A DNA stretch of 64,000 bases from an uncultured Clostridia bacterium (GCA_944382845.1 CALWNN010000085.1:2150-66149); one strand, 5' to 3'; shown: positions 25,547 to 39,751, counted from the first letter of the stretch. Translations and numbers: made by a program. The notes: generated by a model not told the origin, from the sequence alone.

Positions 25547-26620
25547 TTATCCGACAAGACCTGAACGTTCAACGCCTTCAACGAAATATCTCTGTAAGAA
25601 TACATACATGATAAGAATAGGCGCTGTTGCAAGTATACATCCGGATTCAAGCCAAACTATGATCTGTCTTGGCGAAACGGTCTGATTGTTGAACAGCTGA
25701 GCCTGTAAGGTGCTGTCAAGGTTTTTCAGAGCCAGCGCAACAGTATCGTTGTTTGTGAAGAATGAAGATGAAATATAGTAGTCGTTCCAGTACCATACGA
25801 TAGAGAAAAGGAATACGGTAAGGAATGACGACGCTGCGTTTGGTACCATTACAGTAATGAATGTTCTGAACGGTCCGCAGCCGTCAAGGTAAGCCGCGTC
25901 CTCAAGTTCCTTAGGAAGTCCTCTGAAGAACTGTCTGAAAATGAAGATGAACAGACCTGCCTTGATACCGTTTGCAAATATTGCCGGAGCATACATTGTA
26001 ATTCCCTTGTTGATAAGGCTGATTGTTGCTTCGCCGGTAAAAAGCTTTACAAGTCCAAAGCCCTTGAAGAATGAGAACTGAAGGAACAGTGGGATCGATG
26101 TGATCTGTGGCGGAACAATGATCTGTAAAATTACAAGTGCGAAAAGCAGTCCCTTAAATTTAAACTTAAATCTTGCAAATCCGTATCCTGTGATAGCGCA
26201 GGACGCTACTGAAAGGACAGAGGAAATGATATTGAGCTTTAGCGTGTTGAGAACTGTTGAACCGTAATCAATGATATCCCATGTATCTTTGATATTTCTG
26301 AGGGTCAAGCTTTTCGGAAGCCATACTATAGATGGGTCAGACATCTGTTCGTTTGGTCTGAACGCAGTCGACACCATGAATATGAGGGGATAGAGAATTA
26401 CGAAGCAAAGTCCGAAAAGTATGAGGAATCTGAATATAGGCCATACAGAACCCACAAGAGCTTTGTTTCTGTTGTACTTTCTCTGCTCGGGAGTGATATT
26501 TGGCTTGATGCCTGCGGCTTTCATTGCTTTAAGCTTTGCTTTTTTTGCCGCTTTCATTTCTTTTGCGAATAATTTTTCTTCTTTTCTTGTAGCCAATTTT
26601 TTCTCCCCCCTCTTATTCAA
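25547..26620 (-). CDS. Carbohydrate ABC transporter permease (MalG-like), Lys-rich N-terminal tail
   Basis: It has the EAA loop ELEDAAYLDGCGPFRTFITVMVP. The maximal ORF starts at the TTG at 26620. The TTG at 26596 has a GAGGGGGGAG RBS 6 nt upstream. Confidence 0.82.
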   Translation of the reverse strand: MNKRGEKKLATRKEEKLFAKEMKAAKKAKLKAMKAAGIKPNITPEQRKYNRNKALVGSVWPIFRFLILFGLCFVILYPLIFMVSTAFRPNEQMSDPSIVWLPKSLTLRNIKDTWDIIDYGSTVLNTLKLNIISSVLSVASCAITGYGFARFKFKFKGLLFALVILQIIVPPQITSIPLFLQFSFFKGFGLVKLFTGEATISLINKGITMYAPAIFANGIKAGLFIFIFRQFFRGLPKELEDAAYLDGCGPFRTFITVMVPNAASSFLTVFLFSIVWYWNDYYISSSFFTNNDTVALALKNLDSTLQAQLFNNQTVSPRQIIVWLESGCILATAPILIMYVFLQRYFVEGVERSGLVG

Positions 26621-27650
26621 CTTCGTAGTAAACGAACTTGTTTACTACAACTACAACAATTGCAAGTACAACTCCGACTATTGCAAAGTATGCCCAAGCC
26701 ATTGCTGCCGAGAATCCGTGATGCCACTGTGACGACTGTGAAAGAACCTGTTGCATTACCGCGTTTGTAGGATCTACAAATGAGTCTACAACAGTGTAAA
26801 CCAAGCTGGCGATTATCATAGGGCTTATGTAAGGAACGGTAATTTTCCAGAAATATTCCCACGCCGTTGCACCTTCCATCTGCGCCGCTTCCTTGGCAGA
26901 GAACGGAATGTTCTGCAAAGCCGAGAGGAACAGAAGAATCTGGATACCTGAGTTCCATACCATATTGAAGATATCCGCAGTAACTGTGGTTATCATGTTG
27001 GTAAGGCTGTCGCTTATGCCATAAATTCCAAGGAAGGTCAGGAGCTGGTCAACAAGGTCTGTTTCAAACATTGTTGAGAACTGCTCGGAACCGCCTGCAT
27101 ATCCGCCTGTAGACATATTACCGTTGATAATATCGAATACAGGACCTGTTGCGATAATAACAGGAAGGAAGAATACGGCTCTTGCGAATGTACGTCCTCT
27201 GAACTTCTGGTTAAGAATAACCGCAATGAAGATAGAGAAGATAATGATAAGCGGAGTTTTGAGGCCAGTGGTACCAAGCACGCTTAAAAGATTCTTTGTG
27301 TAATCAGGATCCTGTCTGAAAGCGTTTATATAGTTGTCCCAGCCTATAAAATCAAGCTGCATTTCTCCCGATACAGGCTTTGTGTTATTGAATGAATAAA
27401 TAAGAGATTTGATTACAGGAACAATAAAGAAATATATTGTTCCCACAAACCAGAGTGCGATAAATCCGTAGCCGTAGAGAGCCTTTCTTTTTTCGTACGG
27501 GATCTTTGTACCCTTGATCTCTTTGGGCTTCACAAGTCCGCCCTCTTCACTTCCGGACTTTTTAGAAGTTTCGTCTGCAACAGCTTCTGTATTTACATTT
27601 TCAGCTGCCTTTACTTCTGCGGCTTCCATGTTAGTTGTTTTTTCTTCCAT
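26613..27650 (-). CDS. Sugar ABC transporter permease (MalF-like), acidic/Lys-rich N-terminal tail
   Basis: 345 aa. It has the EAA loop AKEAAQMEGATAWEYFWKITVP. Its start overlaps the upstream stop as TAATG. Confidence 0.82.
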   Translation of the reverse strand: MEEKTTNMEAAEVKAAENVNTEAVADETSKKSGSEEGGLVKPKEIKGTKIPYEKRKALYGYGFIALWFVGTIYFFIVPVIKSLIYSFNNTKPVSGEMQLDFIGWDNYINAFRQDPDYTKNLLSVLGTTGLKTPLIIIFSIFIAVILNQKFRGRTFARAVFFLPVIIATGPVFDIINGNMSTGGYAGGSEQFSTMFETDLVDQLLTFLGIYGISDSLTNMITTVTADIFNMVWNSGIQILLFLSALQNIPFSAKEAAQMEGATAWEYFWKITVPYISPMIIASLVYTVVDSFVDPTNAVMQQVLSQSSQWHHGFSAAMAWAYFAIVGVVLAIVVVVVNKFVYYEVE

Positions 27651-39060: not shown

Positions 39061-39070
39061 TTCACTGCTT

Positions 39071-39751
39071 TCACTCAACGATCTCACCGTCCTCAAGGGT
39101 ATACACCTTATCGGCAATATCCATCATACTGGGGTCATGGGTAGTCATAAGAATAGTCATTCCGTGTTCACCCACAAGTTCCTTGAAAAGTTTTACCACA
39201 TGAAGAGCGGTGTTTGTGTCAAGCTCAGCGGTAGGCTCATCGGCAAATATAACATCGGGCTTATGGGCGATCGCTCTTGCAATAGCAACCCTCTGCTGTT
39301 CGCCTCCGGACATTTCGCCCGGTCTGTGGAACATTCTTTTTTCAAGTCCCACGCTTACAAGCGCTTCCTTTGCACGTTTACTGCGTTCTTCATATGGATA
39401 TTTGGCAAGTCTCAGACCGAACTCAACGTTTTCATATGCGGTCATGCTTGAGATAAGAGCCACCGACTGAAAAACAAATGCCATCTGATACCGTCTCAGA
39501 AGATCTCTTTTCTTTTCGGAGAAGCTTGTAATATCATCTCCTTTAAAAATAACGCTTCCGGAAGTAGGCTTATCAAGAGCTCCGAGAATATTTATCAGAG
39601 TTGTCTTTCCGCTTCCCGAACGCCCTCTGAGTATTGTGAGCTGTCCCTTCAGAACTTCAATATTCACATTTTTCAACGCATGGACAACGCTTCCGTCGCC
39701 GATCTTGAAGTCCCTGCAAAGCTCCCTCGTTGATAAAATACACTCAGCCAT
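39071..39751 (-). CDS. ABC ATPase of LolD/MacB/FtsE-like class (first gene of the operon)
   Basis: 226 aa. It has Walker A GRSGSGKTT, signature MSGGEQQRVAIARAIA and Walker B IFADEPTAELD. An AAGGAGAG RBS is present. Confidence 0.85.
   Translation of the reverse strand: MAECILSTRELCRDFKIGDGSVVHALKNVNIEVLKGQLTILRGRSGSGKTTLINILGALDKPTSGSVIFKGDDITSFSEKKRDLLRRYQMAFVFQSVALISSMTAYENVEFGLRLAKYPYEERSKRAKEALVSVGLEKRMFHRPGEMSGGEQQRVAIARAIAHKPDVIFADEPTAELDTNTALHVVKLFKELVGEHGMTILMTTHDPSMMDIADKVYTLEDGEIVE

What the first reader, a model, noticed from the sequence alone, without database searches (positions are those of the whole stretch)
25547..39751. Ten-gene, 14-kb operon: two MalFG-type permease pairs, one giant CBM-fused binding protein, three embedded envelope proteins, two non-cognate ATPases
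All ten genes are co-directional with gaps of 0-54 nt. Several are coupled: TAATG at 27650, abutting genes at 31563/31564, and an overlap at 26613-26620. There is one promoter region (39752-40200) and one terminator (25498-25531).

Gene order is:
1. ATPase
2. ATPase with an AbrB-like tail
3. 975-aa SBP with two CBM-like modules
4. MalF-like permease
5. MalG-like permease
6. 539-aa NHL propeller/TPR/TM-anchor protein
7. Yip1-like 5-TM protein
8. 1088-aa secreted FIVAR-repeat protein
9. MalF-like permease
10. MalG-like permease

Ordinary CUT1 sugar loci have 1 SBP and 2 permeases. Here two complete TMD pairs, with EAA loops visible in all four, share one binding protein. All four permeases carry 25-60-aa Lys/Glu-rich cytoplasmic N-terminal tails. 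I recall similar neighbourhoods in gut Clostridia annotated only as solute-binding/DUF/YIP1 proteins, and I know of no experimental function. It may be a dedicated capture-and-import machine for a large polymer-derived glycan. Any specific substrate would be speculation.
Basis: partly seen in the sequence, partly recalled or inferred. Interest (0 to 1): 0.7.

Follow-up and report, generated by a model that had tools for sequence, protein, structure and literature searches.

The report
Conserved sugar-uptake cassette with hidden glycosidase
This is a real ten-gene operon whose eight-gene core (a giant sugar-binding protein, two different ABC permease pairs, a membrane-anchored propeller protein and a secreted enzyme-like protein of unknown family) recurs unchanged in hundreds of fibre-degrading Firmicutes and has never been studied as a unit.

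Summary
Ten co-directional minus-strand genes (25547-39751) lie between a perfect sigma-70 promoter and a strong terminator hairpin.

- The 26613-26620 overlap is an ORF-calling artefact; the last permease starts at TTG 26596.
- The second ATPase is about 311 aa.
- The "FIVAR protein" is mainly a DUF5696 domain. Its AlphaFold model matches GH129, GH101, GH36 and GH31 glycosidases, with near-invariant Asp residues after barrel strands 4 and 6.

The core order SBP-F1-G1-NHL-Yip1-DUF5696-F2-G2 is invariant in about 85 loci. These span Oscillospiraceae, Butyrivibrio and Paenibacillus, down to 23% identity. NHL and Yip1 are fused in several lineages. The second permease pair is intact, and is an old paralogue rather than a recent duplicate.

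The LolD/OppD-like ATPase pair is optional (25 of 61 loci). Paenibacillus has a UgpC/MsmX-type ATPase at the same position.

Neighbouring genes in some loci point to plant hemicellulose (GH95, GH36, GH26, GH130, GH43). A Caldicellulosiruptor bescii operon annotated with the same architecture is induced on xylan.

Best reading: a surface capture-trim-import machine for decorated hemicellulose oligosaccharides. It is a new variant of CUT1 sugar importers and probably contains an unclassified glycosidase family.

The parts
39985..40013 (-). Promoter: TTGACA, 17-nt spacer, TG-extended TATAAT (12/12 match). About 230-nt leader before the first gene.
   Evidence: It lies between the Rnf terminator (40301-40267) and the ATG at 39751. 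No Rfam element and no cre site in the leader.
39071..39751 (-). A1: ABC ATPase, 226 aa, LolD/MacB/OppD-like, with canonical Walker A, signature and Walker B motifs.
   Evidence: Pfam ABC_tran 113 bits. Best NCBIfam hit is LolD, below the equivalog cutoff. Orthologues at 65-81% identity lie directly upstream of the SBP gene in 25 of 61 loci.
38125..39060 (-). A2: ABC ATPase, about 311 aa (alternative start 39078), with a roughly 70-aa acidic linker and a weak AbrB/MazE-like C-terminal tail.
   Evidence: Best solved relatives are M. tuberculosis OppD Rv1281c (1.5e-64) and LolD (8e-60); no MalK in the top 60.
35143..38070 (-). S: 975-aa secreted binding protein. Layout: SPase-I signal peptide, two CBM6/35-like beta-sandwiches (about residues 77-235 and 258-393), a four-helix bundle (about 395-511), and a CUT1 SBP domain (about 560-975).
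   Evidence: Pfam SBP_bac_8 and SBP_bac_1. CBM_35, two stretches, E 1e-6. AF2 model. Foldseek hits to CBM35 2w1w and CBM6 2cdp, TMt 0.6-0.74. Aligns full-length to the Butyrivibrio and Paenibacillus counterparts.
34136..35119 (-). F1: MalF/UgpA-like permease, first pair, with an EAA loop.
   Evidence: NCBIfam UgpA E 1.5e-14. EAA loop YEAGAIEGIRNRWQEL. 59-87% identical across the Oscillospiraceae loci.
33228..34121 (-). G1: MalG/UgpE-like permease, first pair.
   Evidence: Pfam BPD_transp_1 36.6 bits. UgpE E 8e-25. EAA loop.
31564..33183 (-). N: type-I membrane protein. Layout: signal peptide, PknD-like NHL beta-propeller, TPR, one C-terminal TM helix (about residues 482-505), and a Lys-rich cytoplasmic tail.
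   Evidence: Pfam NHL and TPR_16. PDB sequence hits to Pizza6 and PknD-type propellers. TM scan. Fused to Yip1 in L048, L085, L086 and L088.
30934..31563 (-). Y: Yip1-family membrane protein with 5 TM helices. Its start abuts the stop of N.
   Evidence: Pfam Yip1 59.5 bits. Five hydrophobic segments. Co-varies with F2 and G2.
27650..30916 (-). D: 1088-aa secreted protein. Layout: signal peptide, acidic linker, two FIVAR repeats, and a DUF5696 body (beta-sandwich, TIM barrel, beta-sandwich). Putative retaining glycosidase. Conserved Asp residues at 406, 544, 570, 885 and 945.
   Evidence: Pfam DUF5696 536 bits and FIVAR. AF2 pLDDT 73, pTM 0.71. Foldseek GH129 5opq E 7e-22, then GH101, GH36 and GH31. 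Weak profile hits to GH129. Asp conservation in 151 sequences.
26613..27650 (-). F2: MalF-like permease, second pair, with an extra-cytoplasmic insertion of about 60 aa. Its ATG overlaps the stop of D (TAATG).
   Evidence: The D-F2 overlap of -1 or -4 nt recurs in most loci. Only about 25% identical to F1.
25547..26596 (-). G2: MalG-like permease, second pair, 349 aa. The corrected start is TTG 26596.
   Evidence: Pfam BPD_transp_1 62 bits. Start and RBS. EAA loop.
25498..25531 (-). Intrinsic terminator hairpin followed by a U-tract.
   Evidence: dG -20.7 kcal/mol, z -3.95.

Best explanation
The operon is the local version of an old, tightly conserved Bacillota cassette. Its likely job is to capture, trim and import decorated plant-hemicellulose oligosaccharides at the cell surface.

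Shown here:
- One transcription-unit-like block.
- A giant secreted binding protein made of two CBM6/35-like modules, a helical bundle and a CUT1 SBP domain.
- Two anciently diverged CUT1-type permease heterodimers, F1G1 and F2G2, each with EAA coupling loops.
- A membrane-anchored NHL-propeller/TPR protein (N) and a Yip1 membrane protein (Y). These are a single polypeptide in several lineages.
- A secreted DUF5696 protein (D) with the fold of GH129, GH101, GH36 and GH31 glycosidases.

Inferred:
- S grabs large oligosaccharides, helped by its CBMs, and delivers them to F1G1.
- N-Y is the membrane scaffold. It holds the otherwise unanchored S and D next to the translocators.
- D removes or cleaves a glycosidic decoration outside the cell.
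- F2G2 takes up a second product. In fuller versions of the cassette it has its own ordinary SBPs. Its associate is Yip1.
- In this lineage both translocators are energised by the co-transcribed A1/A2 heterodimer of LolD/OppD-like ATPases. That pair sits where Paenibacillus has a UgpC/MsmX-type ATPase.
- The exact sugar is unknown and probably differs between lineages.
For: Operon structure.

Domain content.

Conservation of the cassette:
- The order S-F1-G1-N-Y-D-F2-G2 is invariant in every one of about 80 Oscillospiraceae loci that has room for it.
- The same order holds in a 27%-identity mannan locus and in 23-24%-identity loci.
- It also holds in Butyrivibrio fibrisolvens and Paenibacillus cellulosilyticus, where each protein best matches its positional counterpart.
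- The genome scan gave at least 577 confirmed stretches encoding a DUF5696 relative. The family holds 5516 clusters at 50% identity.

Physical links between parts:
- N-Y fusions.
- D/F2 and N/Y translational coupling recurs across loci.

DUF5696 as an enzyme:
- Fold match to GH129, GH101, GH36 and GH31.
- Weak sequence-profile echoes to GH129.
- Near-invariant Asp residues after barrel strands 4 and 6.

Binding protein and secretion:
- CBM6/35 fold of the SBP N-terminus.
- S, N and D carry SPase-I signal peptides and mostly lack lipoboxes, so S and D need a tether.

Substrate hints:
- Co-directional neighbours include GH95 (11 loci), GH36, GH26, GH130, GDSL esterases, GH74-like BNR proteins and GH43.
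- The C. bescii operon xloEFG-NHL-GH129-axoFGE is up on xylan and Avicel, and XynR binds its operator (PMC8579813; PMC12285236).

ATPases:
- When present, always as a pair directly upstream and co-directional.
- UgpC occupies the same slot in Paenibacillus.
- The nearest solved relative is an importer NBD.

Co-variation: two groups, {S, F1, G1, N, D} and {Y, F2, G2}.
Against: - There is no biochemical or transcript evidence for this organism.
- The DUF5696 model is only of moderate confidence, and both candidate catalytic loops have pLDDT below 50.
- D885 and D945 are not absolute. D945 is Ser or Thr in one large-protein clade. Sequence identity to GH129 is 12-15%.
- Most loci, including this window, have no CAZyme neighbours and no regulator.
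- 36 of 61 loci lack the ATPase pair, and the EAA loops do not differ between the two groups. A1/A2 coupling to these permeases is therefore unproven.
- Nothing here shows which binding protein feeds F2G2. Neither S nor D co-varies with F2/G2.
- Homology of the C. bescii operon rests on its published annotation, not on sequences I could read.
- The mirror-tree signal is a hint only. Relatedness inflates Mantel tests.
Confidence: 0.6

Rival explanations
1. The block is two ordinary, independent CUT1 sugar importers that happen to flank unrelated envelope genes. This is how the C. bescii genes are annotated (XloEFG and AxoFGE). There is no joint machine. N, Y and D are bystanders or serve another process.
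For: - The C. bescii annotation treats them as two transporters.
- Fuller versions carry ordinary SBPs after F2G2.
- F1G1 and F2G2 are only 20-26% identical.
- Co-variation splits into two groups.
Against: - The gene order is invariant from 100% down to 23% identity, and across Bacilli and Clostridia, with no locus splitting the block.
- D-F2 stop/start overlaps and N-Y abutment or fusion recur.
- D sits between Y and F2 on the DNA but co-varies with S, N and F1G1. Block recombination would not give this.
- Most loci lack a second SBP.
Confidence: 0.2
2. DUF5696 keeps a glycosidase fold but is not an enzyme. It would be a lectin-like receptor or structural adaptor, for example the docking or binding partner of F2G2 in place of an SBP. 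The cassette would then capture and import only.
For: - Candidate catalytic Asp residues are replaced in 5-13% of family representatives.
- The active-site loops are poorly modelled.
- Most loci have no second SBP.
- The D stop overlaps the F2 start.
Against: - Five Asp positions are 85-95% conserved across 151 sequences that are at most 50% identical to one another. Two of them lie at the canonical positions after barrel strands 4 and 6.
- D does not co-vary with F2/G2.
- All top structural neighbours are active retaining glycosidases.
Confidence: 0.2
3. The two ATPases do not energise these permeases. They would be a separate unit that was merely captured upstream, and the permeases would use a shared MsmX-type ATPase encoded elsewhere, as in many Firmicutes. 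The separate unit might be regulatory, or the NBDs of an unlinked MacB/FtsX-type system.
For: - 36 of 61 loci lack them.
- EAA loops are identical with and without them.
- Best family hits are LolD, MacB and FtsE.
- Paenibacillus uses UgpC.
- An intergenic gap of 54-300 nt separates A2 from S in most loci.
Against: - When present, they are always a pair, always directly upstream and always co-directional. This holds in several separate clades at 65-81% identity.
- The window has a single promoter, and no terminator lies between A2 and S.
- The same slot holds the ATPase in Paenibacillus.
- The closest solved relative is the NBD of a type I importer.
- There is no FtsX-type partner in the operon. 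The only FtsX in the window has its own FtsE.
Confidence: 0.3

Closest known systems
CUT1 (TC 3.A.1.1) binding-protein-dependent sugar importers, e.g. MalEFGK2, UgpBAEC and the MsmX-powered oligosaccharide importers of Firmicutes
   Same: - An SBP_bac_1/8 binding domain.
- MalF/UgpA-like and MalG/UgpE-like permeases with EAA loops.
- In Paenibacillus, a UgpC/MsmX-type ATPase next to the cassette.
   Different: - Two non-redundant permease pairs in one unit.
- The SBP is twice the normal size, with two CBM6/35 modules and a helical bundle, and has no lipobox.
- Three conserved non-transporter genes are embedded between the pairs.
- The ATPases here are LolD/OppD-like heterodimer partners, not MalK/MsmX.
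Caldicellulosiruptor (Anaerocellum) bescii xylan degradation locus, Athe_0174-0181: xloEFG, NHL-repeat protein, 'GH129', axoFGE (PMC8579813; PMC12285236)
   Same: - By annotation, the same order: SBP, two permeases, NHL protein, secreted GH129-like protein, two permeases.
- The genes are co-expressed and induced on xylan and Avicel. XynR binds upstream of Athe_0174.
   Different: - It has a second SBP after the second pair, no separate Yip1 gene is listed (possibly a fusion), and no adjacent ATPases. It continues into xylanase genes.
- It is described as two separate predicted xylo-oligosaccharide transporters. N and 'GH129' are uncharacterised.
- I could not read its sequences, so homology is inferred from the annotation.
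GH129 (ZgGH129 3,6-anhydro-D-galactosidase 5opq; NagBb alpha-GalNAc-ase 5wzn) and GH101 endo-alpha-GalNAc-ases
   Same: - The same three-domain fold: beta-sandwich, TIM barrel, beta-sandwich. Foldseek E 7e-22 to 1e-11.
- Weak profile matches in two separate regions.
- Conserved Asp residues after barrel strands 4 and 6.
   Different: - 12-15% identity and profile E-values of 0.04-0.16, so it is not a sequence-level member.
- It is secreted and genetically welded to ABC permeases.
- Its catalytic residues and substrate are unverified.
Bacillus subtilis YknWXYZ (a Yip1-family membrane protein working with a MacB-type ABC transporter; from my own knowledge, Yamada et al. 2012, not checked here)
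   Same: A Yip1-domain membrane protein encoded with, and presumably assembling with, an ABC transporter whose ATPase is LolD/MacB-like.
   Different: - YknXYZ is an exporter-type system with an FtsX-like permease and a membrane fusion protein.
- Here the partners are type I importer permeases, and Yip1 is linked or fused to an NHL propeller.
Gram-positive polysaccharide utilisation loci, and the Bacteroidetes Sus paradigm (surface binding, surface enzyme, transporter)
   Same: The same functional logic: glycan-binding modules, an extracellular enzyme and a transporter are co-encoded. Some relatives sit inside mannan, xylan or fucoside loci.
   Different: - There is no regulator and no classified CAZyme in this window's locus.
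- The cassette is a fixed eight-gene module that moves between different loci, rather than a substrate-specific assortment.

Membership tests
CUT1 ABC sugar importer (TC 3.A.1.1) | Extracytoplasmic binding protein of the SBP_bac_1/SBP_bac_8 type | tested here: met
   Pfam SBP_bac_8 81.8 bits and SBP_bac_1 67.2 bits, residues 580-881, both above cutoff.
CUT1 ABC sugar importer (TC 3.A.1.1) | Two MalF/MalG-type permeases with the BPD_transp_1 fold and an EAA coupling loop | tested here: met
   - G1 (36.6 bits) and G2 (62 bits) are above the Pfam cutoff.
- F2 scores 23 bits, just below it.
- F1 hits only NCBIfam UgpA, GlcT and PotB (E 1e-14 to 1e-12).
- EAA-x3-G loops are present and conserved in all four.
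CUT1 ABC sugar importer (TC 3.A.1.1) | MalK/MsmX/UgpC-type ATPase with a C-terminal regulatory (TOBE-like) domain | tested here: not met
   - A1 and A2 score best to LolD, MacB, FtsE and DevA and to OppD, LolD and MJ0796 among solved structures. No MalK appears in the top 60.
- The A2 tail is weakly AbrB/MazE-like, not TOBE.
- The Paenibacillus cassette does have UgpC.
DUF5696 (Pfam PF18952) | Match to the family HMM above the gathering score | tested here: met
   535.6 bits against a cutoff of 25.6, covering profile positions 2-606 of 612.
Glycoside hydrolase family GH129 (and the related GH101) | Fold: N-terminal beta-sandwich, (beta/alpha)8 barrel, C-terminal beta-sandwich | tested here: met
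   AF2 model pLDDT 73, pTM 0.71. Foldseek top hits are 5opq, 8rzk and 5wzn (E 7e-22 to 4e-18, TM 0.45-0.6), then GH101, GH36, GH31 and GH97.
Glycoside hydrolase family GH129 (and the related GH101) | Significant sequence similarity to family members (the CAZy criterion) | tested here: not met
   Profile against PDB sequences gives E 0.04-0.16 only. Identity in the structural alignments is 12-15%.
Glycoside hydrolase family GH129 (and the related GH101) | Catalytic Asp nucleophile at the end of barrel strand 4, and an acid/base at the end of strand 6 | tested here: inconclusive
   D885 (93-95% conserved) follows strand 4 and D945 (87%) follows strand 6 of the model. Both loops have pLDDT below 50, no residue-level superposition was available, and D945 is Ser or Thr in one clade.
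Glycoside hydrolase family GH129 (and the related GH101) | Demonstrated glycosidase activity | not testable with these tools
   Needs enzyme assays.
Yip1 (Pfam PF04893) | HMM match above cutoff and five TM helices | tested here: met
   59.5 bits against a cutoff of 28.6. Five hydrophobic segments.
MacB/LolCDE-type (type VII) ABC system | LolD/MacB-like NBD paired with FtsX-fold permease(s) | tested here: not met
   - The NBD similarity is real, but below the LolD equivalog cutoffs (205-238 bits against 307.75).
- There is no FtsX-fold gene in the operon or in any related locus.
- The only FtsX in the window (17005-17910) is paired with its own FtsE.
Gram-positive PUL (transporter, degradative enzyme and regulator co-located; definition from my own knowledge of Sheridan et al. 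2016) | Co-located transcriptional regulator and classified CAZyme | tested here: not met
   There is no regulator or classified CAZyme within about 6 kb of the operon on either side in this window. Some relatives do have them: LacI, GH26 and GH130 in L003, and a histidine kinase and GH43 in L087.

The most novel reading that the evidence does not exclude
The eight core proteins form one surface supercomplex, a new way of running ABC import.
- The NHL-Yip1 unit physically bridges two different type I translocators.
- It holds an unanchored CBM-bearing binding protein and an unanchored glycosidase of a new GH family (DUF5696) over them.
- A large decorated oligosaccharide is captured and de-decorated. 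The two products are fed directly into two separate channels: the backbone through F1G1 and the released unit through the Yip1-associated F2G2.
- In most lineages this second route would work without a classical binding protein.
- In this lineage a dedicated LolD/OppD-like heterodimer replaces MsmX as the motor.
Probability: 0.15. Interest if true: 0.85.

Novelty: new variant of a known kind. Interest (0 to 1): 0.6.

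Why it matters
The cassette is in cultured fibre degraders: Ruminococcus albus, R. flavefaciens, R. callidus, Butyrivibrio fibrisolvens and Paenibacillus cellulosilyticus. It is probably also in Caldicellulosiruptor. It recurs in many rumen and gut metagenome assemblies. Yet three of its eight core proteins have no known function, and no searchable paper mentions DUF5696.

If DUF5696 is an active enzyme, it would found a large new glycoside hydrolase family (about 5500 clusters at 50% identity). That family would be obligately wired to ABC importers.

If the N-Y scaffold idea holds, it would explain how Gram-positive bacteria keep non-lipoprotein binding proteins and enzymes at the membrane. 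It would also give a Gram-positive counterpart to Sus-like surface complexes.

Practically, the cassette is a compact, portable uptake module. It could guide annotation of hemicellulose use in rumen and gut microbiomes and in biomass-converting thermophiles.

Tried and rejected
1. Literature searches for DUF5696, PF18952, Athe_0177/0178, Csac_2415/2416 and combinations of NHL, YIP1, SBP and xylan found nothing on the cassette. Only the GH129 search led to the C. bescii papers.

2. I tried to fetch C. bescii DNA by searching the published XynR operator 20-mer in metagenome contigs. There were 0 hits.

3. I tried to find organism names for thermophile-like DUF5696 representatives with the listing of cluster members. 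No names were returned.

The allowed shallow alignment gave a poor SBP domain (pLDDT 30-45) but good N-terminal modules.

5. I looked for a riboswitch or a cre site in the 450-nt leader. There was none.

6. I looked for extra known domains in the longest DUF5696 proteins. None were found, and there were no TM anchors.

7. I tested whether EAA loops differ between loci with and without adjacent ATPases. They do not, so the test does not say which ATPase is used.

8. Rejected: 'second permease pair is a decaying duplicate'. It is intact everywhere except one split F2, in L079.

9. Rejected: 'ATPases belong to a MacB/FtsX system'. No FtsX partner is present.

10. Rejected: an export or biosynthesis role. 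All transport parts are importer-type with a binding protein.

Full report
**1. The observation**

The window carries ten co-directional minus-strand ORFs between 25547 and 39751.

Upstream lies an rnfCDGEAB-apbE operon. It ends in a 15-bp GC-rich terminator at 40301-40267. A perfect extended sigma-70 promoter follows at 40013-39985 (TTGACA, 17 nt, TG-TATAAT). No terminator-like site on the minus strand lies inside the block. The block ends in a hairpin with a U-tract at 25531-25498 (dG -20.7 kcal/mol, z -3.95). The next gene has its own promoter-like site at 25346-25318.

The TAATG overlap at 27650 and the abutting genes at 31563/31564 are real.

Two details need correcting:
- Orthologues of the last permease all begin MATKKEEK. 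The window has TTG at 26596 behind the RBS GAGGGGGGAG, 16 nt after the F2 stop. The '26613-26620 overlap' is therefore an ORF-calling artefact.
- ATPase 2 starts at 39060 or 39078 and is 311-317 aa.

The same organism, with the same context, occurs on at least 24 public metagenome contigs.

**2. What the genes are**

- *A1 and A2.* Both are complete ABC ATPases with canonical motifs. Their best family hits are LolD, MacB, FtsE and DevA, all below the equivalog cutoffs. Among solved structures the best hit is the fused NBD of the M. tuberculosis Opp importer (1.5e-64), then LolD and MJ0796. MalK does not appear in the top 60. So they are not MsmX/MalK-type, but 'non-cognate' is too strong. The A2 tail gives only a weak MazE/AbrB hit (E 0.002).
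- *The 975-aa binding protein (S).* It has SBP_bac_1/8 at residues 580-881. Scanned alone, its N-terminal half gives two CBM_35 stretches (E 1e-6). Its AF2 model is confident only for residues 60-530. That part shows two beta-sandwiches and a four-helix bundle. Foldseek matches the sandwiches to CBM35 and CBM6 modules, TM 0.6-0.74 on the target.
- *The four permeases.* All have EAA loops. The two pairs are only 20-26% identical to each other.
- *The 539-aa protein (N).* It has a signal peptide, a PknD-like NHL propeller, a TPR, a single C-terminal TM helix and a Lys-rich tail.
- *The 209-aa protein (Y).* It is a five-TM Yip1 protein.
- *The 1088-aa protein (D).* It has a signal peptide, an acidic linker and two FIVAR repeats. 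Its bulk is DUF5696 (536 bits).

**3. DUF5696 has a glycosidase fold**

An AF2 model of residues 241-1088 (pLDDT 73, pTM 0.71) has three parts: a beta-sandwich region, a (beta/alpha)8 barrel and a C-terminal beta-sandwich.

Foldseek against the PDB gives, in order:
- GH129 (ZgGH129 5opq, E 7e-22; NagBb 5wzn, E 4e-18)
- GH101
- GH36
- GH31
- GH97

A sequence profile of the family independently gives weak hits to the same GH129 entries, in two different regions (E 0.04-0.16).

The family is large. It has 5516 clusters at 50% identity with E<=1e-3. In an alignment of 151 such representatives, five Asp positions are 85-95% conserved. D885 lies just after barrel strand 4 and D945 just after strand 6 of the model. 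That is the geometry of the nucleophile and acid/base in GH31, GH36 and GH129.

There are caveats. Both loops are poorly modelled. I could not superpose residues. D945 is Ser or Thr in one clade. I therefore treat 'retaining glycosidase of an unclassified family' as likely but unproven. No paper in the library mentions DUF5696 or PF18952.

**4. The cassette is ancient and rigid**

A scan of one genome per species found at least 577 stretches encoding DUF5696 relatives. The best 80 are all Oscillospiraceae and include R. albus AR67, R. callidus ATCC 27760 and R. flavefaciens. Every locus with enough contig shows S-F1-G1-N-Y-D-F2-G2 in this order and orientation, usually with D-F2 overlaps of -1 or -4 nt.

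The same order also holds in:
- a 27%-identity locus embedded in a mannan cluster with GH26, GH130, CE2, an epimerase and LacI;
- 23-24%-identity loci;
- Butyrivibrio fibrisolvens D1 plasmid pNP243;
- a Paenibacillus cellulosilyticus plasmid. There PGAP names the genes 'extracellular solute-binding protein', 'sugar ABC transporter permease', 'NHL repeat-containing protein', 'YIP1 family protein' and 'DUF5696 domain-containing protein'.

Each protein best matches its positional counterpart. The two permease pairs therefore separated before this spread. The second pair is no decaying duplicate: only L079 has a split F2.

N and Y are one polypeptide in L048, L085, L086 and Paenibacillus. This fusion argues that they work as one membrane unit.

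**5. Variable parts**

- *ATPases.* The A1/A2 pair is directly upstream in 25 of 61 loci with enough upstream sequence, and absent from 36. It is never present singly. Paenibacillus has a UgpC/MsmX-type ATPase in exactly that slot. EAA loops are the same with and without the pair, so this test cannot say which motor is used.
- *Extra binding proteins.* Ordinary-sized extra SBPs follow F2G2 in Butyrivibrio (two), in L003 (one, two genes on) and, by annotation, in C. bescii. The Oscillospiraceae loci and the window have none.
- *Co-directional downstream neighbours.* These include GH95 (11 proteins), GH36, GH26, GH130, GDSL esterases and GH74-like BNR proteins. Most neighbours, however, are housekeeping genes.
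- *This window.* The neighbours are Rnf, trmD/rimM, FtsEX-PcsB and origin-proximal genes. There is no regulator, no MsmX and no second SBP.

**6. Link to published work**

In C. bescii the xylan degradation locus starts with 'xloEFG-X-GH129-axoFGE'. The genes are:
- Athe_0174: SBP
- Athe_0175 and 0176: permeases
[quoted passage not shown] - Athe_0179 and 0180: permeases
- Athe_0181: SBP

All are up on xylan and Avicel (PMC8579813, main text and supplements). XynR binds the operator upstream of Athe_0174 in vitro (PMC12285236).

The architecture matches the cassette so specifically that homology is very likely. I could not read those sequences, so this stays an inference. Those papers treat the block as two predicted xylo-oligosaccharide transporters and leave N and 'GH129' unexplained.

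**7. How it most likely works**

Shown:
- the parts list;
- their secretion and topology signals;
- the fixed order and coupling;
- the N-Y fusions;
- the glycosidase-like and CBM-like folds.

Further observations bearing on the mechanism:
- S, N and D have SPase-I-type signal peptides followed by acidic linkers, and mostly lack lipoboxes. S and D are therefore unanchored unless something holds them. N, with a propeller, a TPR and a TM helix, and joined to Yip1, is the obvious candidate.
- A mirror-tree analysis on 66 cassettes gives two residual co-variation groups, {S, F1, G1, N, D} and {Y, F2, G2}. Mantel p = 0.001 for the in-group pairs tested. There is no positive signal for S-F2, D-F2 or N-Y. 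D lies between Y and F2 on the DNA but groups with the first set, so simple block recombination does not explain the pattern. This is a hint only.

My model is that S captures large decorated oligosaccharides and feeds F1G1. N-Y scaffolds S and D at the membrane. D trims or cleaves outside the cell. F2G2, associated with Yip1, imports a second product, using extra SBPs where they exist. A1/A2 are the lineage-specific motor.

The substrate class is probably plant hemicellulose: xylan, mannan or fucosylated side chains, depending on lineage. The specific sugar is unknown.

**8. Verdict**

The operon is real. Its reading as a glycan capture-and-import system is broadly right.

It is better described as one instance of a widespread, unrecognised eight-gene cassette with an embedded putative glycosidase of an unclassified family and a scaffold-like NHL-Yip1 unit.

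It is a new variant of a known kind (CUT1 importers and Gram-positive glycan utilisation loci), not a categorically new system.

Interest is 0.6. It is common in important fibre degraders, three core parts are of unknown function, it has not been studied as a unit, and it is directly testable.

Noticed in passing
window 46000-60000: Cumulative GC skew reaches its minimum near 46-48 kb. Gene orientation flips there: minus-strand genes run up to 47217 and plus-strand genes start at 47442. yidC, jag, mnmE, mnmG and rsmG follow at 52.6-59.6 kb. This looks like the chromosomal replication origin region. The operon lies about 8 kb to its left and is co-oriented with replication.
   Followed up: partly
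window 40328-46239 (-): A complete rnfCDGEAB operon preceded by an ApbE flavin transferase gene. It ends in a strong terminator at 40301-40267.
   Followed up: partly
window 15385-18590 (-): An ftsE-ftsX pair followed by a PcsB-like coiled-coil/M23 peptidase gene (a cell-division hydrolase module). A PucR-type regulator lies upstream at 18732-19817.
   Followed up: no
window 24638-25252 (-): A 204-aa protein with a signal peptide, rich in Lys and Glu, with no Pfam family. It lies directly downstream of the operon's terminator and has its own 11/12 promoter match at 25346-25318.
   Followed up: no
window 37890-37903: A palindromic near-cre site (TGAAAATGCTTACA, one mismatch) about 170 nt inside the SBP coding region. 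Near-cre matches with up to one mismatch are commoner in the window than in shuffles (15 against 4.75).
   Followed up: no
L053:405-2135 and relatives (L031, L032, L034, L038, L039, L040, L056, L074): A secreted protein of about 577 aa with no Pfam family. It has an acidic C-terminal stalk and a sortase-like or TM anchor (…PATGN…KKRG). It lies directly upstream of the SBP gene and is co-directional with it. This is seen in Huintestinicola-type loci that lack the ATPase pair.
   Followed up: partly
L032:14316-16616 and ten other loci: A GH95 (alpha-L-fucosidase/galactosidase) gene lies immediately downstream of G2 on the same strand in 11 loci. This is the commonest CAZyme neighbour of the cassette.
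   Followed up: partly
L079 (about 10.4-11.4 kb): F2 is split into ORFs of 126 and 203 aa. This is the only broken core gene seen in the surveyed loci, and it may be an assembly error or a genuine pseudogene.
   Followed up: no
L088:15186-24070 (Paenibacillus cellulosilyticus plasmid): The cassette is followed by several LLM-class flavin-dependent oxidoreductases interleaved with ordinary SBPs. This is an unusual neighbourhood for a sugar importer.
   Followed up: no
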